In this document: piece by piece, positions 3,043 through 48,446 of the stretch | How the letters are laid out: each line of letters starts with the position of its first letter | Numbering within the stretch: the stretch's first letter is position 1 | Assembly: GCA_016182555.1 (NCBI GenBank) | Contig: JACPGJ010000008.1 | Coordinates: 455,411 to 519,410, forward strand | DNA from: Candidatus Kerfeldbacteria bacterium | Lineage (GTDB): Bacteria; Patescibacteriota; Patescibacteriia; UBA9570; XYC2-FULL-38-9 | Direction of reading: 5' to 3' | DNA length: 64,000 nt | Notes under the pieces: generated by a model | What the model saw: only the letters and a program-made list of their open reading frames with translations | What the model was told of the DNA's origin: nothing | Database searches by the model: none | Made by a program: the position numbers and the translations under genes

Positions 3043-4185
3043 TTATTTTTGCACTATCTTCGCTAAGGCGCGCACCACATAATCAACATCTTCTATCGTC
3101 GTACTCCGACCGAGCGTGAGACGAAGACTGCGACGTGCGTCTTGGCGTGCATACCCGAGAGCAAGTAACACGTGTGATGGTTCCAGTGAACCGGCGGTAC
3201 ACGCAGAACCAAGTGAAGCAGCAATCCCCTCTTGGTCAAGATGCAATAATAATGCTTCGCCATCAACCTCAGGGATAAATACGTTGAGATTATTTGGCAC
3301 ACGGCGTGTGCGGTCACCATTGAGGCGGCTGTGCGGAATGGCGCTAAGAATAGCGTCCATCAGGCGGTCGCGTAATTGCGTGAGGCGCATATTTTCCTGC
3401 TGTTGCTCGGCATGGACTAATTGCAGGGCAGCCGCGAAACCAACAATCCCCGCAACATTTTCTGTGCCGGGGCGCAGGCCGTGCTCTTGGTGCCCACCAT
3501 AGAGGAGTGGCCGCAAGGTTACGCCGCGTTTCACATATAAAGCTCCCACACCTTTAGGGCCATACACTTTACTGGCATTGATGCTGAGAAGATCCACACC
3601 GAGTTTGCCCATGTCGAGTGGTTGGCTTTCAGTCGCTTGGCAGGCATCGGTATGAAAGAGTATTTTTGAGTTAACGGCTTTCACTAGCTGAACGGTTTCT
3701 GTGACTGGTTGAATAGTGCCAATTTCGTTATTCACCATCATCATGCTCACGAGAATCGTTGTTTCTTTTACTGCAGCAACGAATTGTTGTGGATTCACAA
3801 TGCCGTTGGGTGCAACCGGCACGATTGTGAGTTCAAACCCCTCGCGTTCTAATGCCCGACACGTGTCAAGAACAGCAGGATGTTCAATAGCGGTGGTCAC
3901 AATGTGCCCACGGCCAAGATGACGTGCCGCTCCAAGTAACGCCATATTGATACTCTCGGTTCCGCCGGCAGTAAACACTAATTCCTGCGGCGAACAATGC
4001 AAAAAACGGGCAATCGTTGTGCGTGCGTCATCAATAGCGCGGCGAGCACGGTAACCAGGTGTGTGTGCTGAAGATGGATTCGCATACTCTTCACGCAACC
4101 ACGGTTCCATAGCCGAAAACACCTCGGGTGCAAGTGGAGTGGTGGCGGCATGGTCAAGGTAAATGCGGCGCTGTTGTTCAGACAT
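3043..4185 (-). CDS. cysteine desulfurase (class V aminotransferase, IscS/NifS family)
   Basis: 380-aa ORF; PLP-lysine region SINASKVYGPKGVGALYV and C-terminal active-site Cys loop (SLGSACTAGS); no iscU neighbour. Confidence 0.85.
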   Translation of the reverse strand: MSEQQRRIYLDHAATTPLAPEVFSAMEPWLREEYANPSSAHTPGYRARRAIDDARTTIARFLHCSPQELVFTAGGTESINMALLGAARHLGRGHIVTTAIEHPAVLDTCRALEREGFELTIVPVAPNGIVNPQQFVAAVKETTILVSMMMVNNEIGTIQPVTETVQLVKAVNSKILFHTDACQATESQPLDMGKLGVDLLSINASKVYGPKGVGALYVKRGVTLRPLLYGGHQEHGLRPGTENVAGIVGFAAALQLVHAEQQQENMRLTQLRDRLMDAILSAIPHSRLNGDRTRRVPNNLNVFIPEVDGEALLLHLDQEGIAASLGSACTAGSLEPSHVLLALGYARQDARRSLRLTLGRSTTIEDVDYVVRALAKIVQK

Positions 4186-4402
4186 ATATGACTAGCATAC
4201 AACCGATGCCAACGAAGTCAAGAACCGTAGAATATATACATTCGCGTTTGAATGTAAAGCATCCTCGAACCCATCACTTTCTAAAGGTGTGCATTTAGCA
4301 TATATACTTTTTATTAAAAAGAGGATATACTTTAAAGAACAAATATGTAAATGTACTGAAAAAACTTCACGTATTTGTCATTAATGATTTCATCTTACTA
4401 TT

Positions 4403-4897
4403 ATGGAGGCATTATTAGGTGAGAGCGCGGCATCGCCAAAAAAAAATAGACCAGAACTATCAAAAAAATTACCTACTGATAATGTTGAAAATGCTGAGAT
4501 ACATGCAACTGAACCTCATAATGCTATTGACTATACCAGCCCATCTGAAAGCAACGAAACTTGGCAACAGATACTCGATGCCCTAAGGGAAGCAAATGCT
4601 GGAGTTGATCATTCTGTGGCTACTCCAAGCAACGATCTTGAAACACTGGGACGAAGTATGAGAGAGCAGCTTACAAAAGAGCAGGCTAACGGTGGCTCAA
4701 AAACCAAAAGCATGCTATCGCCAGATGAAGTGAACGCAATTGCCGCGGCATTAGAAGAACCAACAGGACTCCTTGATGGTACATTTGAACCACAAGATTT
4801 GCTAGACATGACAAAGGAAAAATATGACGCATGGGAAAAAAAGCAAGCACTGGAAGAAGATCCTGAAGATCCCACTTTTTCTGAAGGAGAGCGGTAA
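4403..4897 (+). CDS. hypothetical acidic protein
   Basis: 164-aa ORF, Glu/Asp-rich, no recognisable motif; first gene of the low-GC stretch. Confidence 0.4.
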   Translation: MEALLGESAASPKKNRPELSKKLPTDNVENAEIHATEPHNAIDYTSPSESNETWQQILDALREANAGVDHSVATPSNDLETLGRSMREQLTKEQANGGSKTKSMLSPDEVNAIAAALEEPTGLLDGTFEPQDLLDMTKEKYDAWEKKQALEEDPEDPTFSEGER

Positions 4898-4948
4898 ACA
4901 AATAACTTTTTTTGTGCTACCCTACGTAAAACAGAACTTATCTAAAGT

Positions 4949-5010
4949 GTACCCCATTGTATTGAGAATTGGAACACCTTGATTCAAGATTTGAGGCATT
5001 GGTTTACTGT
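4949..5010. repeat. ~60-bp intergenic repeat, copy 1 of 3
   Basis: gtaccccattgtattgagaattggaacaccttgattcaagatttgaggcattggtttactgt; first 40 nt nearly identical to the copies at 6263 and 7344. Confidence 0.65.
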
Positions 5011-5038
5011 ATTGCAGCAAATGAATAAATAAACATAT

Positions 5039-6202
5039 TTATTGCGCAATTTGTTTCATATTTTTCCAACTTAACACGTGCCCTTGGCTACGTTGTTGAT
5101 TTTGCATACCGCCATAAATAACATATCCATGCTCTGCTGACATTCCAGCTAAATTCGTCCAGTACTGAATACCTTTAAAATAATCTGAAACAATTGTTTT
5201 ACCAGATTTAATTTCAATAGGAATTAATTGGTCACCTTGTTCAATAATACAATCAATTTCATGCCCTAAACGATCTCGCCAAAAATAACAATTGGGTTGT
5301 GCACCTTGATTAAAACGAAACTTCATCAATTCAGCAATAATAAAAGATTCAAATAAACCCCCATATAAATAATGCGTTTTTAATTGCGCAACATTCGTAA
5401 TATGCAATAAAGCACATGCTAAACCCGTATCATAAAAATAGAGTTTTGGCATTTTTATCAACCGTTTACTAAAATTTTTATGATGAGGCTGTAATAAAAA
5501 TACGATATAGCTAGACTCTAAAATACTCATCCACGCTTTTGCCGTATTATGCGTAATTCCACAATCATTGGCTAAAGAAGATAAATTCAGAATTTGTCCA
5601 ATTCTCCCAGCACATAATTTAATAAATTTTTGAAAGGCCTGTAGGTCAGAAATATTTTTAATCAAACGAACATCGCGCTCAACATACGTTTGAATATAAC
5701 TAGAATACCATTCAGAAGGATTCAGGTGTTGATCATAAATGCGTGGATAACATCCTGTAAACAAATAGCTCTCTATTGATTTTGTTTTGCTACTCGCTTG
5801 CTCTAATTCTTCTAAACTTAATGGTAATAACGTGAGCATTGCCACACGTCCGGCCAGAGTTTGCGAAACATGCTGTTGCAATAAATAGTTATGCGACCCT
5901 GTTAAGATAAATCGACCATTGACTGGCTGATTATCAATCATCGTTTGTAAATAGGATAGTAAATCTGGTACCCGTTGAATTTCATCAAAAATAGCCCCTT
6001 CTTGATATTGATCTAAAAATCTACGGGGGTCTGTTTGGGCAAATTCACGGGTATCTAAATCTTCGAGTGATACATACGGTTTATCACGAAACACCTTACG
6101 TACCAGAGTCGTTTTACCTGCTTGGCGTGGGCCAATGACTGCAATGGCTGGCATTTGTTGAGCCAATTGTTTTAACTTAACTTCTACATTACGCTTAATC
6201 AT
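5039..6202 (-). CDS. AAA+ ATPase of the DUF4143/COG1373 family
   Basis: 387-aa ORF; Walker A GPRQAGKTTL, Walker B-like IFDEIQRV, then TGSHNYLL; C-terminal region typical of DUF4143. Confidence 0.8.
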   Translation of the reverse strand: MIKRNVEVKLKQLAQQMPAIAVIGPRQAGKTTLVRKVFRDKPYVSLEDLDTREFAQTDPRRFLDQYQEGAIFDEIQRVPDLLSYLQTMIDNQPVNGRFILTGSHNYLLQQHVSQTLAGRVAMLTLLPLSLEELEQASSKTKSIESYLFTGCYPRIYDQHLNPSEWYSSYIQTYVERDVRLIKNISDLQAFQKFIKLCAGRIGQILNLSSLANDCGITHNTAKAWMSILESSYIVFLLQPHHKNFSKRLIKMPKLYFYDTGLACALLHITNVAQLKTHYLYGGLFESFIIAELMKFRFNQGAQPNCYFWRDRLGHEIDCIIEQGDQLIPIEIKSGKTIVSDYFKGIQYWTNLAGMSAEHGYVIYGGMQNQQRSQGHVLSWKNMKQIAQ

Positions 6203-6262
6203 AAAGCTATATTAGCATAGGTGTGACAAATTGTCAATTGAATTTACAATCTGTCCTATTTG

Positions 6263-6324
6263 GTACCCCATTGTATTGAGAATTGGAACACCTTGATTCA
6301 GGATTTGAAGCTGTGATTTACTGT
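6263..6324. repeat. ~60-bp intergenic repeat, copy 2 of 3
   Basis: gtaccccattgtattgagaattggaacaccttgattcaggatttgaagctgtgatttactgt between the ATPase and Fic genes. Confidence 0.65.
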
Positions 6325-6342
6325 CTTGCCTCAAATTGTAAA

Positions 6343-7311
6343 TTAACCATTTTGTAACAGTGCGTAAGACTCAAGCAATGCATCATAGATAAATGATTCC
6401 AAAAAAATGTATTTCTCTTCCAGTTGCGCTCGCTGTAAATAAGTATAATACGCTTGTTTCTTCTCTTGCTTAATTAACACTGGAGGTAATCCATATTGCA
6501 GAGCTTGTGCATGCATGAGTAATCTTCCAACACGTCCATTGCCATCAGAAAACGGATGAATTTGTTCAAACTGGGCATGAGTTTTTGCCATGTGCATGAC
6601 AATATCTTCTTCAGATGAGTGCTGGAGATCCTGGCCAAACGTATACATTCGATCATCAATCTTCAAATAATTCGTCGTAGGAACATGCGAACCAACGATG
6701 CGTACCCCATGACGGCGGTACATACCTGCGTCAGATCGAATACCATTCATCAAAATGGAATGAATTTTCTTTATCCAATCTTCTGTTATTTGTTTTGGCT
6801 TTTTATGTTGTGTTAACCACTGCATCAAATTTCCCAGTGCAGCTTGATGATTTTTTGCTTCTTGATGCTCAACGACTGTTTTATCAGGAATGGTCACATT
6901 ATCAAAAATAACCGCTCGCACTTCCGGTTCAGTGAATGTACTCCCTTCAATACTATTCGTATGATATGTCAGTTCAAGGACAAATGTTTCATACAGATCT
7001 TGCCGTTGTACTATATACTGTAACGGATGAGGAAATTGTTTTTTCAGTTCCGCCACCCGTTGCTTTTTTACCAAAAGCTCAGAGTCCGTCACTTCCTTAA
7101 CACCCGTATATTCTTGATACAATAGATCAATCTTCGCTTGTGCAATTTTACGTGGTAAACTCTTCCCATTCACCCAACTATTGAGTGTGACAAAACTGAC
7201 CTGCAGCATTTGAGCAAGCTCTGTTTGCGTTTTACCGCTTACTTTCAAAATTCGTTGAATTTTTTGCTGTACTGTCATAAGTACAGTATAACAAACTTTA
7301 TAAAGAATCAC
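6343..7311 (-). CDS. Fic-family AMPylator fused to an N-terminal XRE-type HTH
   Basis: 322-aa ORF; Fic motif HPFSDGNGRVGRLL; inhibitory-helix-like TNSIEG upstream of it; N-terminal HTH (KTQTELAQMLQVSFVTLNSWVNGKSLP). Confidence 0.8.
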   Translation of the reverse strand: MILYKVCYTVLMTVQQKIQRILKVSGKTQTELAQMLQVSFVTLNSWVNGKSLPRKIAQAKIDLLYQEYTGVKEVTDSELLVKKQRVAELKKQFPHPLQYIVQRQDLYETFVLELTYHTNSIEGSTFTEPEVRAVIFDNVTIPDKTVVEHQEAKNHQAALGNLMQWLTQHKKPKQITEDWIKKIHSILMNGIRSDAGMYRRHGVRIVGSHVPTTNYLKIDDRMYTFGQDLQHSSEEDIVMHMAKTHAQFEQIHPFSDGNGRVGRLLMHAQALQYGLPPVLIKQEKKQAYYTYLQRAQLEEKYIFLESFIYDALLESYALLQNG

Positions 7312-7343
7312 AAGTTTTATAAAGTTTCAATACTCAATGGTAT

Positions 7344-7403
7344 GTACTGCATTGTATTGAAAATTGGAACACCATAATTCAAAATTTACGCCATTGGTTT
7401 AAG
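7344..7403. repeat. ~60-bp intergenic repeat, copy 3 of 3
   Basis: gtactgcattgtattgaaaattggaacaccataattcaaaatttacgccattggtttaagga upstream of the Fic gene. Confidence 0.6.
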
Positions 7404-7419
7404 GAATTGAATGAAATTT

Positions 7420-7448
7420 TTGACACCTGTTTAAATGCTAATTAGAAT
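7420..7448 (+). promoter_or_regulatory. sigma-70-type promoter TTGACA-N17-TAGAAT
   Basis: TTGACAcctgtttaaatgctaatTAGAAT about 45 nt upstream of the 7491 ORF. Confidence 0.45.
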
Positions 7449-7490
7449 ATATATATAATTTAATAGTGTATTAAACAAAAAACTAGCTAT

Positions 7491-8129
7491 ATGGAAAGAT
7501 ATAATCCTGACACAAGACAAATGCATGGCCCATTTGAAAAATTTCAATTACGAGATATCCATTGGAAAGATACATTACCTTATACATTGCAAAAAAAAGC
7601 AGAAAGGCTAGACCCCTATTTTGATGAGCAAACTAATGATTATTCAAATCAATACTTCCATCAAAATTTTATAATCAACAATGATCAATTGGATTTTTTT
7701 GGATTAAGAAAAGTTTTTAAAAAAAAGGATCTTCAAATATTACTTAGAATCTGTAACAATGATTCGTTTATTCATCTTAAAATAGAACTTAATAAATATA
7801 CTGACAATTATTGTGTAATCACTGCTATAAAAAAAGAACGTGGATCAGCTACTTTACCTTCTAAATTGGGTATACAATTATATGAAAAATTGTTTGATTT
7901 CTTACAAGATTTAGCTGATACAACAGGTAAGCCGGTTACGCATATTGTAAGACGTGCTCCTGAAGAAATGAGCGATACACCTCTTACAATAGAACGTTGG
8001 AATCAAATATTTTTTCCTATTCTAAATAAAAATGGGAGAGTATACACCCTCGATCCAGAAACTGAACATACTTTTGAACATACTTTTCTACCTGAATCAA
8101 AAAAACCAAATACTCTGCAAGCTGCCTGA
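7491..8129 (+). CDS. hypothetical protein (AT-rich, probably foreign)
   Basis: 212-aa ORF, markedly lower GC than neighbours, no recognisable motif; abuts the tRNA-Glu 3' side. Confidence 0.5.
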   Translation: MERYNPDTRQMHGPFEKFQLRDIHWKDTLPYTLQKKAERLDPYFDEQTNDYSNQYFHQNFIINNDQLDFFGLRKVFKKKDLQILLRICNNDSFIHLKIELNKYTDNYCVITAIKKERGSATLPSKLGIQLYEKLFDFLQDLADTTGKPVTHIVRRAPEEMSDTPLTIERWNQIFFPILNKNGRVYTLDPETEHTFEHTFLPESKKPNTLQAA

Positions 8130-8214
8130 AAAAAACTGTTATCTTCTATACACGCAAGTGCGATAGATAAAAAATGTCTAAAACGCATCAAAAAATGGAA
8201 TTTTTTGTTGTCTG

Positions 8215-8286
8215 TACCCGCACGGGGAATCGAACCCCGATTATCGCGTTGAGAACGCGGCGTCCTAACCGTTAGACGATGCGGGC
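8215..8286 (-). tRNA. tRNA-Glu (anticodon CTC)
   Basis: Minus-strand sequence gcccgcatcgtctaacggttaggacgccgcgttCTCaacgcgataatcggggttcgattccccgtgcgggta folds as a cloverleaf: 7-bp acceptor, TTCGATT T-loop, anticodon loop ttCTCaa. Confidence 0.8.
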
Positions 8287-8375
8287 AAGGGGTTTTGTGC
8301 CGCCATGCAACACAAAAAACGCAGATGGATTCTACGTTTTTTTGATTGCTCAGTCAAGACGGACGGACAAAATTA

Positions 8376-9704
8376 TTATTGTTGAAGATATTGTGGCTGT
8401 ATCTCGTCTTTCCAATAATCGACACTGAAAAAATCATCCGGTGGAATATCTGTGATATTTTTTTGTTCATCAACAGTTGCGTGAGAAACTACTTGATTGT
8501 CTCGATACATGGTGTATTCCAGAATAGTATCATCCGTGGTATTAATAACAAATTCCACAGCTGGATCTGGTAAGCTTTCTTCTTCATTAAAAAATACATT
8601 TGACAGTTGATAACGTACACGTATGATTTCTTTACCAAGGTATTGTTCTTTTTCTTGTGACACCGGTTCTCCTAATTCATCAATACGCTGACGAATACTT
8701 AATGGATCCATAAATTGAGTTTCATATATATTTTCAATAGCGCGACCGAGAAAATCTTTTTGAACTGTTTTTTTATACTCTTCACGAAATGTTTCCAATT
8801 CTTCATTGCTAACAGTGCGAACCTGTATCGTATCAATATTCACTGCATACACTGCTGAGGAACGATCTCCGCTGACTATTTGAAATAAATGATCAGATGT
8901 ATTTTCCCTATGCGCGTTATATCGCATATCGCTGATATTTAGTGATACTTGATGTTGATATTTACCCTCAGCATCAACCCATGAATTAACGACGGATATG
9001 GAATCAATAAATCCAGATGCGCCAGTAGACATTTGTATATTCTCGTCATTTATTGATTCAGCGGTCGTCCAGGTAATGGATAGATCGCCACGAGGATCAT
9101 CTAAATGTTGTGCATGAACATTATTGAGAGCTAATGTTGTACCATTCATGAGTAATTTGGCAGTTCCCATATCAAAACCATCGCTACATTCAAATAAAAG
9201 ATTGACGTCCTTTACCGATGTAGTTTTTTCTTGTTGATAATCCACACGACAGCTTTGATTATCAACAGCGGAATAAAGAGTAGAACCTGTGAGCAAATCA
9301 AAACGCACATTGTTCCCCTGTTGCCAAATAGACACCTTCCCCATAAATCCACTGATTTCCTGATAACGAAATTCTGTAGAATTATTTGGATAAAAGGTAT
9401 TGTCAATAGATTTTGCAAGAACCTGGTTAATGTATATTCCATTTTTTGTATGTGGCCATGAACCAAATTCAATGATGCCAAAGACCGCAATAGCAAGCAC
9501 AACAGGAATGACACCAAAAGAAAATTTGTGTAATTTCATAAAACGAAATGGATGATGAGTAAATAGTGATGAAGAAATTAAATTTTCTTTCTGAAGAATG
9601 CGCGCAATGCGTTGTTGTAATTCACCTTGAAACACTTGGCGTTGTGGAATGATTTCACGTTGTAAAATTCGTGTTAATCGTTTGTTGAAGAAAAATTGTT
9701 TCAT
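8376..9704 (-). CDS. membrane-anchored protein, putative anti-sigma factor
   Basis: 442-aa ORF overlapping the ECF sigma gene by ATGA; ~60-aa cytoplasmic N-terminus, one TM (FGVIPVVLAIAVFGIIEF), large extracytoplasmic domain. Confidence 0.55.
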   Translation of the reverse strand: MKQFFFNKRLTRILQREIIPQRQVFQGELQQRIARILQKENLISSSLFTHHPFRFMKLHKFSFGVIPVVLAIAVFGIIEFGSWPHTKNGIYINQVLAKSIDNTFYPNNSTEFRYQEISGFMGKVSIWQQGNNVRFDLLTGSTLYSAVDNQSCRVDYQQEKTTSVKDVNLLFECSDGFDMGTAKLLMNGTTLALNNVHAQHLDDPRGDLSITWTTAESINDENIQMSTGASGFIDSISVVNSWVDAEGKYQHQVSLNISDMRYNAHRENTSDHLFQIVSGDRSSAVYAVNIDTIQVRTVSNEELETFREEYKKTVQKDFLGRAIENIYETQFMDPLSIRQRIDELGEPVSQEKEQYLGKEIIRVRYQLSNVFFNEEESLPDPAVEFVINTTDDTILEYTMYRDNQVVSHATVDEQKNITDIPPDDFFSVDYWKDEIQPQYLQQ

Positions 9705-10231
9705 AAATGTAATGGCGCTAATTGTTGACGAAGTATTTTTAATGCGCGAGATAGTGACGCGGCAACCGTACGCTCACCAATCTGCATAATTCCAGCAATT
9801 TCTTTATTGGATAGACCCGCTTGGTGACGCAGCAGCACGATCTCTTTTTGTCGTGACGGCAGTTGATCAATCGCCGCAAGTGCATGAGCAAGATTCAAAG
9901 AAAGATTTGCAACGGCATCACTCATTGCCGCAACAGGAATTTCAATAGCATCGATCGGAATATTGGTGTGTCGCTTTTTTCGGTAATAATCGATAAGCGC
10001 ATGACGAGCGATCGTGAAAATCCAACTACGCAATGTCGCTCCATCTTGTTCGTGGAAATCGTGAATATGTCGAACAACTTTTTCAAAAATGTCGCCAACA
10101 ATATCTTCTGTTTCTACCGTATTCCCAACACGAAAATAGATAAAGCGATACACGGGTTGAAAATAATCGTGAACAATAGTTTCGATTTGATATCTATGCA
10201 TAGGCAATATAAGGAAACGAATGAACAACAA
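9701..10231 (-). CDS. ECF-type sigma-70 family RNA polymerase sigma factor
   Basis: 176-aa ORF; region 2 (FIYFRVGNTVETEDIVGDIFEKV...ARHALIDYYRKK) and region 4 HTH (LPSRQKEIVLLRHQAGLSNKEIAGIMQIGERTV); start may be the internal Met at 10201. Confidence 0.8.
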   Translation of the reverse strand: MLFIRFLILPMHRYQIETIVHDYFQPVYRFIYFRVGNTVETEDIVGDIFEKVVRHIHDFHEQDGATLRSWIFTIARHALIDYYRKKRHTNIPIDAIEIPVAAMSDAVANLSLNLAHALAAIDQLPSRQKEIVLLRHQAGLSNKEIAGIMQIGERTVAASLSRALKILRQQLAPLHL

Positions 10232-13389: not shown

Positions 13390-14109
13390 TTATATATGTG
13401 AATGTTTTTTAATACGCATTTGTTTAAAGGATTGATCTTGTTCTACCACAATCGTCTGTTGTTTCACCAGTTCGAGTAATGCCAGAAATGTCACAACGAC
13501 TTCTCCACGATCTCGATTATCCGCAAGCAACTGGTCAAAACTCATGGTGATATTTTTTTCGATCAAGTTGCGCACCTGCGCCAATTTTTCACGCAAGCTC
13601 ATCACTTTTTCAATCGCAGCTTTTGGAATACGCACGACGGGTTCAAGACGGCTTAAGATGTCGACAAAAAATGTACGTAAGTGCTCAGTAGATATATCCT
13701 GCGGCGGATGAAATACCACTTGCGTAAATTTTTCACGAGGCGTTTTTTTCGCGTAGAGAAATTGTTTGCGACCGATCAGTTCTTCAATACCTACCGTTGC
13801 TTCCGCATATTTTTTATACATGCGCAGTTGTGCAGCCAACTCGCCAGGGTCTTCTTCGTCTTCTATTTGCAGATACGGCAAGAGTGCACGCGATTTAAGC
13901 AGCAGCAGCTTTGTGGCAACAACAAGGAAATCTGCCAGTTCTTCGGGTAAGCGCTCTTCAACCTCCTCTAAATACGCTAAGAATTGTTCGGTAACACTCG
14001 CGAGCGATACTTCCGTAATTTCCAATTGGTCTTCTTCAATGAGTTGCAATAACAAATCGAGCGGGCCAGTAAAATTTTCAAGTTCCAGCGCTTTTTTCAT
14101 GCTTGTCAC
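13390..14109 (-). CDS. scpA: segregation and condensation protein A
   Basis: 239-aa ORF; N-terminal LENFTGPLDLLLQLIEEDQLEITEVSLASVTEQFLAYL is characteristic of ScpA. Confidence 0.85.
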   Translation of the reverse strand: MTSMKKALELENFTGPLDLLLQLIEEDQLEITEVSLASVTEQFLAYLEEVEERLPEELADFLVVATKLLLLKSRALLPYLQIEDEEDPGELAAQLRMYKKYAEATVGIEELIGRKQFLYAKKTPREKFTQVVFHPPQDISTEHLRTFFVDILSRLEPVVRIPKAAIEKVMSLREKLAQVRNLIEKNITMSFDQLLADNRDRGEVVVTFLALLELVKQQTIVVEQDQSFKQMRIKKHSHI

Positions 14110-15372
14110 TTAGGAAGATGTTAAGTAGGCATCAATAAACGCATCGGGGTTTTTAGGATGACTCTCTGCAGCACGCTTGATAACAGCCTGATTCACTCGA
14201 CCTTGATATTTCTCGGTAAGACGATCTATTGCCTCAAGATATTCATCAATGAACCCATCAGGGTCTTTCAAGCTATTCAAAGCAGCATATTTGATAACAG
14301 TTTGACCCACTCGATCATGATATTTCTGACTCAGACGATCCATGATCTTAAGATATCCGTCAATAAAACCATCAGGATCCTTGGGATTACTCTCTGCGGC
14401 ATGCTTAATAACGCTTTGATCCACTCGACTTTGATATTTCTCGGTTAGATGACTCACGGTCTTAAGATATCCGTCAATAAAACCATCAGGGTCTTTCAAG
14501 CTATTCAAAGCAGCATATTTGATAACACCCTGATCAACTCGATCCTGATATTTCTCAGTAAGACGATCTACTGCCTCAAGATACTCATCAATAAAACCAT
14601 CAGGATCCTTGGGATTGCTCTCTGCGGCACGTTTGATAACTCTTTGATCCACTCGATCCTGATACTTCTGACTCAAACGATCCACGGTCTTAAGATATCC
14701 GTTAATGAAACGATCAGGATCCTTGGGATTGCTCTCTGCGGCACGTTTGATAACACTTTGATCCACTCGATCCTGATACTTCTCAGTAAGACAATCCACT
14801 GCCTCAAGATACTCATCAATAAAACCATCAGGATATCTAGGATTACTTACCGCGGCACGTTTGATAACTCTTTGATCCACTCGATCCTGATACTTTTCAG
14901 CGAGGCGCTCTATTTCTTTTGGATTGAGCCAATGAGATAACTCTGCAAATGCGAGTGTTGTCAAAAATGAATCCCCACGCCGATGTGATTGGCGCAGTGA
15001 CAAAATAAAATCAAACACGGCTTGATCAAAAATGGTTGCAAATTGTACTGTATTATGCAAAAGACTTTCTGGTGATTTTTTTTCTAATCTTGCTACAATT
15101 TTAATTTTTTTTTGCAGTGTGGATTGAAATACTTTTATAACATCATCGACTGATATTGCCCGTGCCTCTTCAAAATCTTTACTTATTTTCTTCCATTCAT
15201 TCTCTATCCATTCTCGATTGGCTTGAACAGCTACGGCAACAGCGGCTTCAAGTGTTGGTTTCACCTGTTCTTTAAAAGCTGTAGTTCCGACACCCTTAAT
15301 AGTAATTCCTTCCGTTAATGCTTGGCTTTTCGCTTTTCGGCCTTCGCGTATGAGGCTAGGTTTATAACGCAT
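14110..15372 (-). CDS. hypothetical protein with seven near-identical 38-aa tandem repeats
   Basis: ORF 14110..15441 trimmed to the Met at 15372 to avoid overlap with aspS; ~180-aa unique N-terminus, then repeats EKYQDRVDQxVIKRAAESNPKDPDGFIDEYLEAVDRLT. Confidence 0.7.
   Translation of the reverse strand: MRYKPSLIREGRKAKSQALTEGITIKGVGTTAFKEQVKPTLEAAVAVAVQANREWIENEWKKISKDFEEARAISVDDVIKVFQSTLQKKIKIVARLEKKSPESLLHNTVQFATIFDQAVFDFILSLRQSHRRGDSFLTTLAFAELSHWLNPKEIERLAEKYQDRVDQRVIKRAAVSNPRYPDGFIDEYLEAVDCLTEKYQDRVDQSVIKRAAESNPKDPDRFINGYLKTVDRLSQKYQDRVDQRVIKRAAESNPKDPDGFIDEYLEAVDRLTEKYQDRVDQGVIKYAALNSLKDPDGFIDGYLKTVSHLTEKYQSRVDQSVIKHAAESNPKDPDGFIDGYLKIMDRLSQKYHDRVGQTVIKYAALNSLKDPDGFIDEYLEAIDRLTEKYQGRVNQAVIKRAAESHPKNPDAFIDAYLTSS
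14113..14898. repeat. 114-bp tandem coding repeat, about 7 copies
   Basis: Near-identical 114-nt units visible in DNA (e.g. ...catcagggtctttcaagctattcaaagcagcatatttgataac... recurs at a 228-nt spacing); they generate artifactual antisense ORFs. Confidence 0.8.
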
Positions 15373-15376
15373 ATTT

Positions 15377-16765
15377 CTATCTTTCTTTGATCTGAATACC
15401 AAGTTCGTCCAGTTGTTGCTGTGCGACAACAGAAGGCGCACCCATCAACAAATCTCGTCCTTCGGCGGTTTTTGGAAATGCAATGACTTCGCGAATGCTT
15501 GGTTCATTGGCCAAAATCATGACAATGCGGTCAATACCCGGGGCAATTCCGCCATGAGGTGGTGCGCCATACGTAAACGCATTCAACATGTGACCAAAAC
15601 GAGATTCTTGCTCTTCTTTGCTAATGTTGAGCAGATTAAAAATTTTCTGCTGCATCGTCTGTTCATGAATACGAATGCTACCACTGGCAAGTTCATATCC
15701 ATTCAAAACTAAATCGTATGAATTTGCGCGAACACTCAATGGTTCGTTATCGAGCTTTGCAACATCTTCCGGTTTCACCGAACAGAATGGATGATGTTTA
15801 GCTTGTAAACTTCCATCATCCCCTTCTTCAAACATGGGAAAATCGAGCACCCAGCAAAATGCTAACTCATTTGGGTCTTCCGGATTTTTTCGTAAATCTG
15901 GTTTATCATGACCAAATTTTTCCATCGATTCTGCATACGTTAACCGTGGGAATGGAACGGTGGAAAGATGTTTTTCTGGCGCAGTCTGTTTCACCATTTC
16001 AATAAACATCGCTTCGGTGTATTGCAAAATATCTTCTTGGGTAATGAAAGACATTTCATAATCGAGTTGCGTAAATTCTGGTTGGCGGTCTCCGCGTGAA
16101 TCTTCATCTCGAAAGCACCGCGCAATTTGGAAGTATCGTTCTAACCCCGACACCATCAATAATTGTTTAAACTGTTGCGGCGATTGTGGCAATACATAAA
16201 ATTTTCCTTTTTGTAAACGCGATGGAACGATGTACTCTCGTGATCCTTCTGGTGTTCCTTTCATCATAATAGGCGTTTCAATTTCTAGAAAATCATGTTC
16301 ACCCATATACCTGCGGAAAAACGCAACAACCCGGTCACGCAACATGATATTCTTCTTCATTCGTTCTGTACGCAAATCAAGATAGCGGTATTTCATTCGC
16401 AATTCTTCGTTGATCGGCTGTGTATCTTGCGCAACATCAAACGGCGGCGTCTCCGCAGTGTTCAAAATAGTGAGCGCGAGGGCTTCAATTTCAATGGTGC
16501 CAGTTGGCGAGTTGGCATTCACCTGTTTTTCCGGGCGCGCATTTACTTGGCCACGAATTTCAACCACAAATTCCGGGCGCAGTCTTGCGGCTTCTTCCAA
16601 TGCCTCTTTATGATTCGGTAAAAAGACCACTTGGCAAATGCCTGAGCGGTCACGAAGATCAATAAAAATAAGCTTTCCCATGTCGCGGCGGACGTGTACC
16701 CAGCCTTTTAACACCACCTCCTGCCCTGTTTTTTGCAGGGTATCAATAATCCATGTACGTTCCAT
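15377..16765 (-). CDS. aspS: aspartyl-tRNA synthetase, short form without GAD insertion
   Basis: 462-aa ORF; N-terminal OB fold; class II motifs including FRDEDSRGDRQPEFTQLDYEMSF and GAPPHGGIAPGIDR. Confidence 0.85.
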   Translation of the reverse strand: MERTWIIDTLQKTGQEVVLKGWVHVRRDMGKLIFIDLRDRSGICQVVFLPNHKEALEEAARLRPEFVVEIRGQVNARPEKQVNANSPTGTIEIEALALTILNTAETPPFDVAQDTQPINEELRMKYRYLDLRTERMKKNIMLRDRVVAFFRRYMGEHDFLEIETPIMMKGTPEGSREYIVPSRLQKGKFYVLPQSPQQFKQLLMVSGLERYFQIARCFRDEDSRGDRQPEFTQLDYEMSFITQEDILQYTEAMFIEMVKQTAPEKHLSTVPFPRLTYAESMEKFGHDKPDLRKNPEDPNELAFCWVLDFPMFEEGDDGSLQAKHHPFCSVKPEDVAKLDNEPLSVRANSYDLVLNGYELASGSIRIHEQTMQQKIFNLLNISKEEQESRFGHMLNAFTYGAPPHGGIAPGIDRIVMILANEPSIREVIAFPKTAEGRDLLMGAPSVVAQQQLDELGIQIKER

Positions 16766-16837: not shown

Positions 16838-17914
16838 TTATAATTTTTTGTATCGCGTACCACGCCCCTGCCCGATACGCTTCAACTTTCCCAATTTCAC
16901 TAAACGATTCAGTGCCTGACGAACGGTGGGCATCACCACACCAGTGGCTTTCACTATCTCGGTTGGGCCAGCTTCTGCTACATCACCAAAATATTTCCAC
17001 ACGGCGTATTGTTTTGGCGAAAGCGTGTCTTCCACTTTTTCTTCTTGCAAGTACGCGAGTGCTTTTGTCGCTTGCTCTCGCACAACAGAAAGAAAAAAAT
17101 TCAACCACGGAGTAATAGTTTCACTCTCCGTGCCAAAAGTTTGTTGAGATTTTCGCAACGCAATATAATATTCGTCCTTCCGACGTTCTACAATTTGCTC
17201 GTGCGAAACATAGTGCACAAACTGATACCCCGATCGCAACAACAACAAATTCGTGAGCACACGTGAAGTTCGGCCATTCCCATCTTCAAACGGATGAATT
17301 TTCAAAAACTCAATAATAAAATTGGCAATGATTAACAGCGAATGAAAACGATTTTTCTCCAATGCAACTATTGTCCAATCCACCAACTCTTGCATCTCTT
17401 TTGCGGTCAAATACGCCGGTGTTGTTTCAAACATGATTCGCACCACTTGACCGTTCTGTCCCAATACACCCACCGTATTCTCTTTCTTTTTGTATTCACC
17501 TCGATGCAGATCATCTTTGGTAGAATATTTCAACAACTCTTTATGCAGCGCGGTAATGATGCTTTCTCGCAGCGGCAGTGTTTGAAAGCTCTCAAATACT
17601 TTTTGCAGGGTTTCCAAATAACCCTGCACTTCTTGTGAATCACGGTCAGCAAATTTTGAAACCGCAAGACCACGCATTATTTTTTCTACTTCTTCATCTG
17701 TGAGCTTGCTCCCTTCAATACGAGTAGAACTACCTGCAGAAGTGATAAGCGTGGATTTACGAAGATGGTCAATCGCTTGTGGCGTCATGCGCAAACCAGA
17801 CTTAAATTCACCACGAATACCATCAATTTCCGCCAAAAGAGCCACGATGTGGGGTTCGGGGTTATGTACTCGATTATCGTATTTTCGCTTAATATCGCTA
17901 TTATTTTCGCTCAT
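16838..17914 (-). CDS. Fic-family protein with C-terminal winged HTH
   Basis: 358-aa ORF; Fic motif HPFEDGNGRTSRVL; N-terminal inhibitory-helix motif STRIEGSK; C-terminal wHTH (PTEIVKATGVVMPTVRQALNRLVKLGKLKRIGQGRGTRY). Confidence 0.8.
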   Translation of the reverse strand: MSENNSDIKRKYDNRVHNPEPHIVALLAEIDGIRGEFKSGLRMTPQAIDHLRKSTLITSAGSSTRIEGSKLTDEEVEKIMRGLAVSKFADRDSQEVQGYLETLQKVFESFQTLPLRESIITALHKELLKYSTKDDLHRGEYKKKENTVGVLGQNGQVVRIMFETTPAYLTAKEMQELVDWTIVALEKNRFHSLLIIANFIIEFLKIHPFEDGNGRTSRVLTNLLLLRSGYQFVHYVSHEQIVERRKDEYYIALRKSQQTFGTESETITPWLNFFLSVVREQATKALAYLQEEKVEDTLSPKQYAVWKYFGDVAEAGPTEIVKATGVVMPTVRQALNRLVKLGKLKRIGQGRGTRYKKL

Positions 17915-17983: not shown

Positions 17984-19279
17984 TTATGGAGTAATGCGGT
18001 TGATCATGCGTGGAAACGGAATCGTTTCGCGGATATGCTTTGTGCCGGTAATCCAAGCGGTAATACGCTCTAAACCATACCCAAAACCGGAATGAGGCAC
18101 AGAGCCATATTTGCGTAAATCGAGGTACCATTCAAACGGTGCTCGTGGCAGGTTGAATTCTTCCATTTTGCGGACAAGCAAATCATAATCATCAATACGC
18201 TGCGAACCACCAATAATTTCGCCATAGCCTTCTGGTGCTAATAAATCAGAACACAACACGCGGCTCGAATCTTCTGGGTCTGGCTTCATATAAAACGCTT
18301 TCACTTTCGCTGGATATTTCATAATGAACATCGGCACATCGTACTGCTGCGTGAGTATTGTTTCGTCATCTGCGCCGAGGTCGTCATCTGCGGCGATGTC
18401 ACTCCCCAAAACATGCAACTTCTCCACTGCTTCCGCGTGAGTGATGCGTACAAATGGTTTTGTTACGGCGGTTTGCAACGGTGCCACATTTCGCTCCAAC
18501 ACACCCAACTCCACAACATTACGCTCCAACACTGCTGCAACAATATATTTCATCAACCCTTCCTGAATATCCATGTTGCCGATGTAATCCACAAACGCCG
18601 CTTCCGCATCCATCATCCAAAACTCAGTTAAGTGCCGGCGGGTTTTCGATTTTTCTGCACGAAACACCGGACCAAAATCAAACACACGGCCATGCGAAAA
18701 CATGGCGGCTTCCAAATATAACTGCCCACTCTGTGTCAAATACGCTTTTCCTTCATCAAAATAATTCAGTTCAAATAGTTCGGTCGTATCTTCGCAAGAA
18801 GTTGGCGTGAGCACCGGCGCATCAATTTTGATATAGCCTTCTTTATTCAAATATTCGTAGGTTGCGTTAATAATAGTATTGCGCACACGTTGAATTGCCC
18901 ACTGGGTTCCTGCACGCAACCACAGGTGCCGTTCGTTCAACAAAAAATCTGGGCCGTGTTCTTTTTTTCCAATCGGATATTCTTGCGCAATTTGCAATAC
19001 CGTCAACCCACTCACCTGCAATTCATATTCTTCTTTTTTGGGGTGCTTACTTACCGTGCCGGTTAATTCCACGGAAGATTCAATCGTCAGCTTCTGTGTG
19101 CTCTCCCATACTGGCGCAGGCACCGCGGTTTCCGAAACAATCGCCTGCGCAAAACCCGATCCGTCACGAATTTGTAAAAACGCGATCTTGCCCGATGAAC
19201 GCAGGTTATAGACCCATCCACGAAAGGTCACCTCTTCACCAACGTGTTTTGAAAATGCGAAAATGGTTGAATGTGTCAT
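17984..19279 (-). CDS. asnS: asparaginyl-tRNA synthetase
   Basis: 431-aa ORF; OB fold N-terminus; class IIb motifs FRAEKSKTRRHLTEFWMMDAE and GYGLERI. Confidence 0.85.
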   Translation of the reverse strand: MTHSTIFAFSKHVGEEVTFRGWVYNLRSSGKIAFLQIRDGSGFAQAIVSETAVPAPVWESTQKLTIESSVELTGTVSKHPKKEEYELQVSGLTVLQIAQEYPIGKKEHGPDFLLNERHLWLRAGTQWAIQRVRNTIINATYEYLNKEGYIKIDAPVLTPTSCEDTTELFELNYFDEGKAYLTQSGQLYLEAAMFSHGRVFDFGPVFRAEKSKTRRHLTEFWMMDAEAAFVDYIGNMDIQEGLMKYIVAAVLERNVVELGVLERNVAPLQTAVTKPFVRITHAEAVEKLHVLGSDIAADDDLGADDETILTQQYDVPMFIMKYPAKVKAFYMKPDPEDSSRVLCSDLLAPEGYGEIIGGSQRIDDYDLLVRKMEEFNLPRAPFEWYLDLRKYGSVPHSGFGYGLERITAWITGTKHIRETIPFPRMINRITP

Positions 19280-48270: not shown

Positions 48271-48346
48271 ATTTGAATTTTATGTTATTTTTACATATAT
48301 TTCAAGTATACTTGAATTTTATGCATCTGTCAATGAATACATAACT

Positions 48347-48375
48347 TTGACACAAGAAATATTGGGGGTATGATA
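48347..48375 (+). promoter_or_regulatory. sigma-70-type promoter TTGACA-N16-TATGAT
   Basis: TTGACAcaagaaatattgggggTATGAT about 70 nt upstream of the RelA/SpoT-like gene. Confidence 0.4.
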
Positions 48376-48446
48376 AAATTATGAAATACTGATGTAGTAT
48401 ACAGAAGTCGAATAATTTATTTTTTTATTCTTAGAAATAAGCCAAA

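What the first reader, a model, noticed from the sequence alone, without database searches (positions are those of the whole stretch)
4949..7403. Three copies of a ~60-bp intergenic repeat separating the cassette genes
Copies at 4949-5010, 6263-6324 and 7344-7403 share a nearly identical 5' half (gtacc(c/t)cattgtattga(g/a)aattggaacacc...) and a diverged 3' half. Each sits in an intergenic gap. Two of them lie immediately 3' of a minus-strand gene, namely the ATPase and the Fic gene. Their placement resembles cassette boundary elements. It is the pattern seen with attC-like sites or recombination sites for gene shuffling, although I could not find the imperfect palindrome expected of attC. They could alternatively be shared terminator or regulatory modules.
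Basis: seen in the sequence. Interest (0 to 1): 0.5.

Follow-up and report, generated by a model that had tools for sequence, protein, structure and literature searches.

The report
Serine-recombinase scars of tRNA-Glu gene cassettes
The three repeats are most likely the leftover attachment-site halves of three small mobile elements that a large serine recombinase inserted one after another at the end of a tRNA-Glu gene in a Kerfeldbacteria (CPR) genome; this is a familiar kind of genomic island, but made by an enzyme class not normally linked to tRNA targets.

Summary
Three direct copies of a ~91-nt repeat (R1 4949-5039, R2 6263-6353, R3 7344-7434) each head a one-gene cassette. The array ends at tRNA-Glu(CTC), 8214-8286 on the minus strand.

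The repeats are not attC sites, terminators, promoters or structured RNAs. Each starts sharply with the antisense of the tRNA's 3' terminus (GTAC). Each then carries a T-loop-like GAAC motif exactly 5 bp further out than in the tRNA itself (27 nt against 22 nt). That offset is the published attP-versus-attB rule for large serine recombinases (LSRs).

R homologues in four other genome or metagenome lineages sit in the same way. A tRNA-type terminator lies on one side. Unrelated cargo (DGRs, a HIT protein) lies on the other, followed by tRNA-Glu in the three lineages where sequence is held that far. In one metagenome lineage a complete 555-aa LSR gene runs across the R boundary. Its CPR homologues, in five independent contexts, all read into an antisense tRNA 3' end, and their far ends show the same 22/27 geometry.

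Related Kerfeldbacteria have empty sites, with the tRNA followed directly by its terminator. The window island has no recombinase, so its cassettes are probably decayed or trans-dependent remnants.

One point is unexplained. The repeat tail evolves like coding DNA in a frame that is out of phase with the LSR.

The parts
4949..5039 (+). R1, the repeat furthest from the tRNA. Nt 4949-4975 form the 27-nt P'-type half-site GTACCCCATTGTATTGAGAATTGGAAC. The tail reads as ...HCIENWNTLIQDLRHWFTVLQQMNK* up to 5032.
5039..6202 (-). Cargo of cassette 1 (4949-6262): an AAA_14 + DUF4143 ATPase that matches the PADLOC candidate defence family PDC-S01 (E 9e-108). A promoter-like site lies at 6237-6209.
6263..6353 (+). 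R2. Its first 38 nt are identical to R1. Its tail carries a premature stop (..LIQDLKL*), so it is a decaying copy.
6343..7278 (-). Cargo of cassette 2 (6263-7343): an HTH_3 + Fic protein, 311 aa as called in L011, matching PADLOC PDC-S04 and SoFic. A promoter-like site lies at 7313-7285, with a perfect 12-nt inverted repeat over it.
7322..7343 (+). Partial inverted copy of the R core (AAGTTTCAATAC...CAATGG) directly left of R3. Together with R3 it makes an imperfect palindrome centred near 7344. It may be a remnant of the other (P) half-site or an operator.
7344..7434 (+). R3, the repeat nearest the tRNA and the most diverged. Its half-site is GTACTGCATTGTATTGAAAATTGGAAC. Its tail reads ..HCIENWNTIIQNLRHWFKELNEIFDTCLNAN* up to 7445.
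7491..8129 (+). Cargo of cassette 3 (7344-8213): a 212-aa ORF with no match in Pfam or PADLOC.
8214..8286 (-). tRNA-Glu(CTC). On the + strand its 3' end reads GTACCCGCACGGGGAATCGAAC (8214-8235), which is the 22-nt B'-type half-site. The gene no longer encodes CCA.
4403..4897 (+). Flanking 164-aa ORF of unknown function, between the island and the class-V aminotransferase gene (3043-4185). It is not part of the repeat. The Logan contig L009 breaks about 80 nt past this ORF's stop, inside R1.

Best explanation
Each repeat is most likely the element-side half (P' arm, plus adjoining element sequence) of the attachment site of an integrative element. A large serine recombinase (LSR) of a family widespread in CPR bacteria inserted that element at the 3' terminus of tRNA-Glu. 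The proposed mechanism is as follows. The enzyme pairs an element site (attP) with a host site (attB) whose right half is the tRNA acceptor and T arm. Exchange occurs at a dinucleotide at or next to GTAC, the antisense of discriminator A73 and the neighbouring bases. Integration leaves the host flank joined to P' at the far end of the element, and that junction is the repeat. At the near end it leaves the P arm joined to the tRNA. In autonomous elements attP lies inside the 3' end of the LSR gene, so after integration the LSR gene reads into the antisense tRNA. The window holds three such units in series: R1 with the ATPase, R2 with HTH-Fic, R3 with a 212-aa ORF, then the tRNA. R3 differs from R1 and R2 as much as copies from other genomes do, so the units were probably acquired separately, with the newest nearest the tRNA. 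None keeps an LSR gene, so they are decayed remnants or depend on an enzyme supplied in trans.

Shown here: the repeat, its sharp edge, its link to tRNA-Glu in several genomes, the 22/27-nt geometry, the LSR crossing the R edge in one lineage, the tRNA-directed habit of the LSR family, and empty sites in relatives.

Inferred: that an LSR made the window array, the order of insertion, and how the LSR genes were lost.
For: 1. Link to tRNA-Glu. An antisense tRNA-Glu lies to the right of R in the window, L002, L006 and L022, although the flanks are not syntenic.

2. Shared terminal bases. The sharp edge of R repeats the tRNA terminus and varies with it. In the window both the tRNA side and R read GTACCC. 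In L006 both read GCACCC. In L022 both read GGTAGCC.

3. Displaced terminator. Just outside the R edge, L002, L003, L006 and L022 have an intrinsic-terminator hairpin. It is of the kind that directly follows tRNA-Glu in the empty-site relatives L019 and L023.

4. The 5-bp offset. The GAAC of the T-loop-like motif ends at nt 22 on the tRNA side and at nt 27 in R, for every R copy. Rutherford et al. 2013 show that the zinc-ribbon-domain motif of LSR sites sits 5 bp nearer the centre in attB than in attP (PMC3783163).

5. An LSR at the R edge. L007 (the same sequence as L004) has a complete 555-aa LSR whose ORF crosses the R edge and stops 16 nt inside it. L003, from the same metagenome as L007, has the same R and the same right-hand sequence but a different left flank.

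6. Habit of the LSR family. There are 1256 homologues at E<=1e-20; those that carry a source name are all named as CPR lineages. In five independent contexts the LSR ORF ends inside an antisense tRNA: tRNA-Pro in L012, L013/14 and L016/17, tRNA-Asp in L015, tRNA-Glu(CTC) in L018. Each far end shows the same 22/27 (tRNA-Asp: 23/28) pair.

7. Host. The window organism is Candidatus Kerfeldbacteria, a CPR lineage.

8. Empty sites. The syntenic relatives L019-21, L023 and L024 have no R.

9. Cargo. It is accessory and unrelated between cassettes: PDC-S01 ATPase, Fic, DGRs and a HIT protein.
Against: There is no LSR gene or remnant in the window. This rests on tblastn at E<=50, Pfam scans of 33 window ORFs, most of the larger ones, and a motif regex. 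There is also none next to tRNA-Glu in L002, L006 or L022.

No conserved P half-site could be recognised beside the tRNA or to the left of R2. Only a partial inverted copy lies to the left of R3.

Published LSR rules say attP does not recombine with attL or attR (abstract of PMC3783163). Tandem arrays therefore need an extra assumption, namely loss of the resident P arm and a tolerant left half of attB.

Only one lineage (L004/L007) shows an LSR joined to an R-type site. There the conserved reading frame of the R tail is out of phase with the LSR.

The exact crossover dinucleotide is not determined. No activity was tested.
Confidence: 0.75

Rival explanations
1. These are classical tRNA-island direct repeats made by a tyrosine integrase. 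In that case R would be a degenerate duplicate of the tRNA 3' end left by successive integrations.
For: The location at the 3' end of a tRNA gene, the tandem arrangement, and 6-9 nt shared with the tRNA terminus are all typical of tyrosine-integrase islands. Tandem arrays of such islands are well known (PMC7192596).
Against: No tyrosine recombinase was found in the window or in the R-bearing loci. Identity with the tRNA is only 6-9 nt. The rest of R is not tRNA sequence but a T-loop-like motif displaced by exactly 5 bp. The one recombinase gene seen touching an R edge is a serine enzyme. Five homologous serine enzymes sit in the same position relative to tRNA genes.
Confidence: 0.08
2. This is an integron-like cassette system. 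The repeats would be attC-like sites that fold in single-stranded form and are shuffled by a trans-acting integrase, so the one-gene cassettes would still be actively mobile.
For: The cassettes carry one gene each and no recombinase. Each is bounded by a repeat with a conserved core and a variable remainder, and the cargo varies between genomes.
Against: Neither strand folds better than shuffles (z from -0.99 to +0.41). The candidate 9-bp stem is not kept between copies (read from the sequences). No inverted repeat lies within R. The cassettes have their own promoter-like sites and mixed gene orientation. No IntI-like gene or attI/Pc arrangement was found. The array is anchored on a tRNA gene.
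Confidence: 0.05
3. R is a shared functional RNA or regulatory module: a terminator, a promoter or operator, or a small RNA. It would have been duplicated locally along with neighbouring genes.
For: All copies are intergenic. R2 and R3 lie about 60 nt upstream of minus-strand genes. A palindrome overlaps R3.
Against: No Rfam family matches. There is no significant fold. The only terminator-like site in the island lies outside the repeats, and promoter-like sites lie outside the conserved core. In other genomes the cargo lies in either orientation relative to R: the DGR reads towards R in L006 and away from it in L004. The neighbouring genes are not paralogues.
Confidence: 0.03
4. R is the orphaned 3' end of a protein-coding gene that serves as the integration target, copied with each insertion.
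For: The R tail has a clear coding signature in one frame. Mean BLOSUM62 per site is 2.54 against 0.00 and -0.36 in the other frames. Variable bases per codon position are 9/3/13. There is one 3-nt indel.
Against: No copy, in any genome, is joined to an upstream ORF. Upstream sequence is a terminator or unrelated DNA. No protein among 5.8 billion shares the tail. The first 27 nt are explained by the tRNA and LSR geometry. The coding signal is better read as a piece of the element, namely an LSR tail or a small ORF across attP.
Confidence: 0.05

Closest known systems
Large serine recombinase (serine integrase) attachment sites: attP, attB and attL of Listeria A118/LI, Bxb1 and phiC31 integrases
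   Same: The sites are short. A distal motif is placed 5 bp further from the centre on the element side than on the host side (27 nt against 22 nt here; PMC3783163). A few central bases are shared between the partners. The recombinase gene lies at the very end of the element. The L007 enzyme has the Resolvase + Recombinase + Zn_ribbon_recom architecture.
   Different: The target is the 3' terminus of a tRNA gene, which Mageeney et al. 2020 described as not previously reported for serine integrases (PMC7192596). attP lies inside the 3' coding end of the recombinase gene. The window array holds three sites in tandem with no recombinase gene. No activity was tested.
Tandem arrays of integrative elements at tRNA genes, and recombinase-less units bounded by att sites (cis-mobilizable elements, CIMEs, of Streptococcus; the latter from my own knowledge)
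   Same: Several unrelated cargo units lie in series at one tRNA gene. Each is bounded by a copy of the att sequence, and some or all lack a recombinase.
   Different: The known cases rest on tyrosine integrases, whose core is restored at both ends so that re-integration is straightforward. For serine enzymes the hybrid sites are not normal substrates, so the way this array grew is unclear.
Integrases whose attP lies inside their own gene: SSV1-type archaeal tyrosine integrases (a review, PMC8371274, surfaced but was not read) and Myxococcus phage Mx8 IntP (both comparisons from my own knowledge)
   Same: Integration into a tRNA gene separates the 3' end of the recombinase ORF from the rest. 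An orphan coding-like fragment is left at the far junction, and the integrated enzyme gets a different C-terminus.
   Different: Those enzymes are tyrosine recombinases. Here the enzyme is a serine recombinase, and only the last ~5-48 codons are exchanged.
Integron attC sites and gene cassettes
   Same: One-gene cassettes are separated by a repeat with a conserved core and a variable remainder.
   Different: There is no attC palindrome, no IntI gene and no common promoter. Gene orientation is mixed and the cassettes have their own promoter-like sites. The array is anchored on a tRNA gene.

Membership tests
Large serine recombinase att site (P' half-site at an attL junction) | The distal (zinc-ribbon-domain) motif lies 5 bp further from the crossover in attP than in attB. 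| tested here: met
   In the window the tRNA side is GTACCCGCACGGGGAATCGAAC (22 nt) and R1 is GTACCCCATTGTATTGAGAATTGGAAC (27 nt). The same 22/27 pair holds for R2, R3, L002, L006 and L022, and for the bona fide LSR elements L012, L013, L016 and L018 (23/28 in L015). The rule is stated in PMC3783163.
Large serine recombinase att site (P' half-site at an attL junction) | A cognate large serine recombinase gene is associated with the site. | tested here: inconclusive
   The feature is met in L004/L007, where a 555-aa LSR ORF crosses the R edge. It is not met in the window, L002, L006 or L022, which have no LSR gene or remnant. The rest of the window genome could not be searched.
Large serine recombinase att site (P' half-site at an attL junction) | The recombining partners share an identical central dinucleotide. 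| tested here: met
   GTAC is shared by the tRNA side and all three R copies in the window. In L006 both partners read GCAC. In L022 both read GGTAGCC. The exact dinucleotide within these bases is not resolved.
Large serine recombinase att site (P' half-site at an attL junction) | The full attP has imperfect dyad symmetry (P and P' arms). | tested here: inconclusive
   In L012 and L016 a GTTCG lies about 29 nt left of the junction, mirroring the xGAAC on the right (read from the sequences). In the R-type attP of L004 no mirror motif was seen. In the window only a partial inverted copy lies to the left of R3.
Large serine recombinase att site (P' half-site at an attL junction) | Recombination is catalysed by the enzyme. 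| not testable with these tools
   This needs an in vitro or in vivo assay.
Integron attC site | An imperfect palindrome (R''-L''/L'-R') folds in single-stranded form. | tested here: not met
   Folds of both strands of all three copies have z-scores from -0.99 to +0.41. No inverted repeat lies inside R. The one candidate stem is not kept in R3, L003 or L006 (read from the sequences).
Integron attC site | An adjacent IntI tyrosine integrase with attI and a common promoter, and promoterless co-oriented cassettes. | tested here: not met
   No recombinase was found among the 33 window ORFs scanned, most of the larger ones. Cassette genes lie on both strands and have their own promoter-like sites.
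Tyrosine-integrase tRNA island (attL/attR direct repeats) | The direct repeat is a copy of a substantial 3' segment of the tRNA, and a tyrosine integrase gene lies in the island. | tested here: not met
   Only 6-9 nt are shared with the tRNA. No Phage_integrase-type gene is present.
Intrinsic terminator, promoter module or structured RNA | A G+C-rich hairpin with a T run, or consensus promoter hexamers, or an Rfam family, lies within the conserved part. | tested here: not met
   The single terminator-like site in 4200-8400 lies at 8036-8051, outside R. No promoter-like site is conserved across the copies: the only one that overlaps a core is a weak 9-of-12 match at 7357-7385 in R3, and the strong sites lie outside the cores. 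Rfam finds only tRNAs.
Tandem or accreted integrative elements without their own recombinase (CIME-like) | Units are bounded by att sequences, lack recombination genes, and sit at the target of an autonomous relative. | tested here: met
   Three R-headed units without a recombinase sit at tRNA-Glu. Autonomous relatives carrying an LSR are L004/L007 (R-type) and L018 (at tRNA-Glu). Whether the units can still be mobilised was not tested.

The most novel reading that the evidence does not exclude
A CPR-wide family of large serine recombinases may have specialised on tRNA 3' termini and placed attP inside its own 3' coding end. Integration would then swap the enzyme's C-terminal tail, giving a built-in switch between the excised and integrated states. 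In the R-type lineage the conserved, out-of-phase tail (..ENWNTLIQDL..) would be joined to the enzyme only in the excised form, by a +1 frameshift at TAT-TGA-G. Alternatively it would be a small protein that exists only across attP. The recombinase-less defence and DGR cassettes would then be units that this enzyme still moves in trans, which would amount to a serine-recombinase analogue of an integron at a tRNA gene.
Probability: 0.15. Interest if true: 0.8.

Novelty: new variant of a known kind. Interest (0 to 1): 0.55.

Why it matters
tRNA genes are the classic landing sites of tyrosine integrases. A 2020 survey stated that use of a tRNA gene by a serine integrase had not been reported, and it predicted only 14 such cases among 297 (PMC7192596). 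In this analysis, all five homologue contexts examined from a very large LSR family (1256 homologues at E<=1e-20), together with the query LSR's own context, where an R site takes the tRNA's place, show the same architecture: the LSR ORF reads into an antisense tRNA, and the far end carries a tRNA mimic with the 5-bp shift. If that holds across the family, three things follow. First, it would identify a main route by which CPR bacteria, which have tiny genomes, gain defence genes and diversity-generating retroelements. Second, it would provide many natural attP/attB pairs whose host half is a universally conserved tRNA sequence, which is of interest for genome engineering. Third, it would allow attB and attP to be predicted from sequence alone through the 22/27 rule. 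For this window, it turns an unexplained repeat into a dated record of three acquisitions.

Tried and rejected
- RNA structure: folds of both strands were no better than shuffles. Rfam found only tRNAs.
- Promoter or terminator: nothing is conserved inside R.
- attC-like or other inverted repeats within R: none.
- sigma-54 promoter, dif/Xer site, Tn7/CAST end, IS200/IS605 end: each was compared by eye with consensus sequences I recall, and none fitted. These comparisons are from my own knowledge and are not tests.
- DGR template/variable repeat: rejected, because differences between R copies are not confined to adenines (sequences).
- Pseudo-tRNA: ARAGORN and Rfam find nothing in R.
- Viral contigs: two scans found no R.
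- Three exact core matches (L001, L005, L008) lie inside unrelated sequence with no similarity beyond the core (L005 and L008 inside coding genes), and are taken as chance.
- Strain comparison by exact protein: the organism is seen in only one run among these three look-ups (SRR12113422), and its contigs break at R1 and R2.
- LSR remnants in the window: none. The best hit lies in SecY and is spurious.
- Tyrosine or serine recombinase elsewhere in the window: none among the 33 ORFs scanned, most of the larger ones.
- A conserved P half-site beside the tRNA: not found. Only a loose TGGA(A)TTTTT similarity links the window and L022.
- One script flooded its output because of an empty pattern. Only its first lines were used.
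Full report
**1. The observation**

The region was read directly. The repeat finder returns one family of three direct copies at 4949-5039, 6263-6353 and 7344-7434, with R2 84% and R3 68% identical to R1 over 91 nt. The 24-nt core CATTGTATTGARAATTGGAACACC occurs three times in the window, even with three mismatches allowed, against none in 100 shuffles. A profile built from the copies finds no fourth copy.

The repeat has a sharp 5' edge at GTAC and fades towards the 3' side. The first 30 nt are 90-100% identical among the window copies and the remainder 50-71%.

**2. The surroundings**

The repeats lie in a low-G+C stretch (26-42% in most 500-nt windows from about 4250 to 8250, against roughly 49-52% across the aminotransferase gene). 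This stretch sits between a class-V aminotransferase gene (3043-4185, minus) and tRNA-Glu(CTC) at 8214-8286 on the minus strand.

Each repeat is followed on its right by one gene:
- an AAA_14/DUF4143 ATPase (5039-6202, minus);
- an HTH-Fic protein (6343-7278, minus);
- a 212-aa ORF with no family match (7491-8129, plus).

The ATPase and Fic proteins match the PADLOC candidate defence families PDC-S01 (E 9e-108) and PDC-S04/SoFic. The minus-strand genes have their own promoter-like sites between the repeat and the start codon.

**3. Readings that do not fit**

Neither strand of any copy folds better than shuffled sequence (z from -0.99 to +0.41). Rfam finds only the three tRNAs. The single terminator-like site in the island lies outside the repeats. 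No inverted repeat lies inside R. These results argue against an attC-type hairpin, a terminator and a structured RNA.

**4. Copies elsewhere**

Exact-core scans found R in one GTDB genome (L002) and in metagenome contigs L003, L004, L006 and L007. Three further core-only matches (L001, L005, L008) lie inside unrelated sequence with no similarity beyond the core (L005 and L008 inside coding genes), and I take them as chance. Two scans of viral contigs found nothing.

In every true copy, similarity begins at the same sharp edge. L003 and L004/L007 share R and everything to its right but differ completely to its left, and the break falls exactly at that edge.

**5. The tRNA link**

An antisense tRNA-Glu lies to the right of R in the window, L002 and L006, although the flanking genes are not syntenic. 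Aligned with the tRNA, the edge of R repeats the tRNA's 3' terminus and varies with it. The window has GGGTACA in both the tRNA and R1. L006 has GGGTGCAT in both.

Directly outside the edge, L002, L003 and L006 carry an intrinsic-terminator hairpin. This is what would be expected if an island had separated a tRNA gene from its own terminator. The cargo between R and the tRNA is unrelated from genome to genome:
- a complete DGR in L006 (RT, bAvd, TR/VR);
- a DGR target gene with adenine-specific VR/TR differences in L004;
- a HIT protein in L002.

The DGRs face opposite ways relative to R, so R is not a functional part of its cargo.

**6. The enzyme**

To the left of R, L007 holds a complete 555-aa large serine recombinase. 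Its C-terminal part, as held in L004, matches Pfam Zn_ribbon_recom. Its ORF crosses the R edge and stops at the TGA 16 nt inside R.

The search for homologues returned 1256 proteins at E<=1e-20. The best 120 are 43-52% identical, and those that carry a name are all named as CPR lineages. I fetched five independent contexts. In all of them the recombinase ORF ends inside the 3' end of an antisense tRNA gene: tRNA-Pro in L012, L013/14 and L016/17; tRNA-Asp in L015; tRNA-Glu(CTC) in L018.

This family therefore integrates at tRNA 3' termini, and its attP lies inside the 3' end of its own gene. In L004/L007, R occupies the place that the tRNA occupies in the homologues.

**7. The geometry**

For the bona fide elements I located the far ends. 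In L016 and L013 the far end lies just after the terminator of the conserved Na+/H+ exchanger gene. In L018 it lies just after the terminator that follows an MscL gene.

Each far end begins with the same few bases as the tRNA side. It then carries the T-loop-like xGAAC motif 27 nt from the start, against 22 nt on the tRNA side:
- L016: GTCGACCTGTAGATACTATACTTGAAC against GTCGGGGTGAAAGGACTTGAAC;
- L013, L012, L015 and L018 likewise;
- window: GTACCCGCACGGGGAATCGAAC in the tRNA against GTACCCCATTGTATTGAGAATTGGAAC in R1, and the same for R2, R3, L002 and L006.

Rutherford et al. 2013 showed that the zinc-ribbon-domain motif of serine-integrase sites sits 5 bp nearer the centre in attB than in attP (PMC3783163). 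R therefore has the anatomy of the P' half of an attP whose partner is the tRNA-Glu acceptor and T arm. The exact crossover dinucleotide within or beside GTAC is not resolved.

**8. Host and empty sites**

The window's GAPDH is 100% identical to a protein of a Candidatus Kerfeldbacteria MAG, which is a CPR lineage. In syntenic relatives (GAPDH 66-74% identical), tRNA-Glu(CTC) lies downstream of GAPDH, in L019-21 and L024 within about 300 nt. In L019-21 and L023 it is followed at once by CCA and a terminator. No R is present in any of them (L019-21, L023, L024).

The region between the tRNA and the aminotransferase gene differs among the three genomes that keep both genes (window, L019-21, L024).

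A further relative, L022, has one diverged R. It shows the terminator, then GTAGCCGACTGTATTCAGAATTTGAAC, then one 121-aa ORF, then tRNA-Glu with GTAGCCCCACGGGGAATCGAAC.

**9. How the array probably arose**

R3 is as different from R1 and R2 as the copies in other genomes are, while R1 and R2 are closer to each other. That points to separate acquisitions rather than local duplication.

No LSR gene or remnant is present in the window. I could not recognise a conserved P arm beside the tRNA. The only candidate is a partial inverted copy of the core to the left of R3.

Published rules say serine integrases do not recombine attP with attL or attR. I therefore infer repeated integration at the tRNA half-site after the resident P arm and LSR gene had been lost, aided by a left half of attB that is not conserved between hosts. 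This step is inference, not observation. L004/L007 compared with L003 most simply represent attP (a circle or a tandem) and attL of one DGR-carrying element.

**10. An unexplained feature**

Beyond the half-site, R evolves like coding DNA in the frame GTA CCC CAT TGT ATT GAG AAT TGG. The peptides are ..HCIENWNTLIQDLRHWF....IIQNLRHWFKEL....LIQQIKQWSEILP.. and ..IIQDLKQLWEQLP... Mean BLOSUM62 per site is 2.54, against 0.00 and -0.36 in the other frames. Variable bases per codon position are 9/3/13. The one indel among these copies is 3 nt.

In the other LSR elements, and in the diverged R of L022, the LSR frame stays open for 37-48 codons through P'. The excised enzyme would therefore carry a tail that integration replaces. 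In the core R type, however, the LSR frame hits an invariant TGA after four codons, and the conserved frame is +1 relative to it. No annotated protein contains this tail. The possibilities are a +1 frameshift, a small ORF that exists only across attP, or a relic. I cannot decide among them here.

**11. Comparison with what is known**

- The sites behave like serine-integrase att sites. The 5-bp rule and the shared central bases are met. A cognate enzyme is seen in one lineage only. Activity is untested.
- The tandem, recombinase-less units resemble accreted integrative elements and CIMEs, which are known for tyrosine integrases.
- An attP inside the integrase gene recalls SSV1-type archaeal integrases and Mx8. 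Both comparisons are from my own knowledge; a review of archaeal tyrosine recombinases surfaced, but I did not read it.
- They are not integron attC sites.
- Mageeney et al. 2020 wrote that serine integrases were not known to target tRNA genes and that such use had not been reported. My literature searches found no description of this CPR family.

**12. Verdict**

The repeat is real. It is best explained as serine-recombinase attachment-site scars that head three cassettes at tRNA-Glu (confidence about 0.75). It is a new variant of a known kind and of moderate interest. There is also a less likely but more interesting possibility: a recombinase tail switch and trans-mobilised defence cassettes.

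Noticed in passing
window 16838-17914 (-): A second Fic-domain gene sits between two class-II aminoacyl-tRNA synthetase genes (15377-16765 and 17984-19279). Those two genes are adjacent in the relatives L019-L021. The second Fic gene shares short stretches of DNA similarity with the island Fic gene (D4, D5, D8). No R copy lies beside it.
   Followed up: partly
window 47008-49502: A second AAA_14 + DUF4143 ATPase (47008-48270, minus) lies next to a RelA_SpoT-like gene (48447-49502, plus), close to the EF-Tu and ribosomal-protein region. It may be another inserted defence-like pair.
   Followed up: no
window 14054-14912, within ORF 14110-15441 (-): At least six head-to-tail copies of a 114-nt (38-aa) unit lie inside a 443-aa ORF between ScpA and an aaRS gene. 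Relatives have only a ~108-aa ORF at that position (D1).
   Followed up: no
window 7293-7327 and 7322-7365: A perfect 12-nt inverted repeat (AAACTTTATAAA / TTTATAAAGTTT) lies over the promoter-like site of the HTH-Fic gene and may be an operator. A second inverted pair is formed by a partial copy of the R core just left of R3.
   Followed up: partly
window 8207-8219; L019 11395-11410: The window tRNA-Glu gene is followed by AGAC instead of an encoded CCA. The empty-site relative L019-21 encodes ...GGGTACCA. Integration appears to have removed the encoded CCA, so the tRNA would depend on a CCA-adding enzyme.
   Followed up: partly
L012, L013, L015, L016, L018 (far ends) and L022 19005-19120: In the excised form, the LSR ORF of these elements would continue in frame for 37-48 codons across attP. 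The tails include ..T[AIST]LEL[VWYF]xx[VI][LY].. in four of the six. After integration the ORF instead ends in 5-25 codons of antisense tRNA. The enzyme's C-terminus therefore depends on whether the element is integrated.
   Followed up: partly
L006 3589-6100; L004 1202-2550: Two unrelated R-bounded islands carry diversity-generating retroelements. L006 has RT, bAvd and a 125-nt TR/VR pair. L004 has a target gene with a 95-nt VR/TR pair that differs only at template adenines.
   Followed up: partly
window 8376-10231 (-): An ECF sigma factor gene and a 442-aa ORF with no family match lie between GAPDH and tRNA-Glu in the window genome. They are absent from that position in the relatives L019-L021 and L024.
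   Followed up: no
L009, L010, L011 (Logan SRR12113422): The short-read assembly of the same organism breaks at R1 and R2, inside the 38 nt that are identical between them. Repeats of this kind therefore fragment CPR assemblies at exactly these islands.
   Followed up: yes
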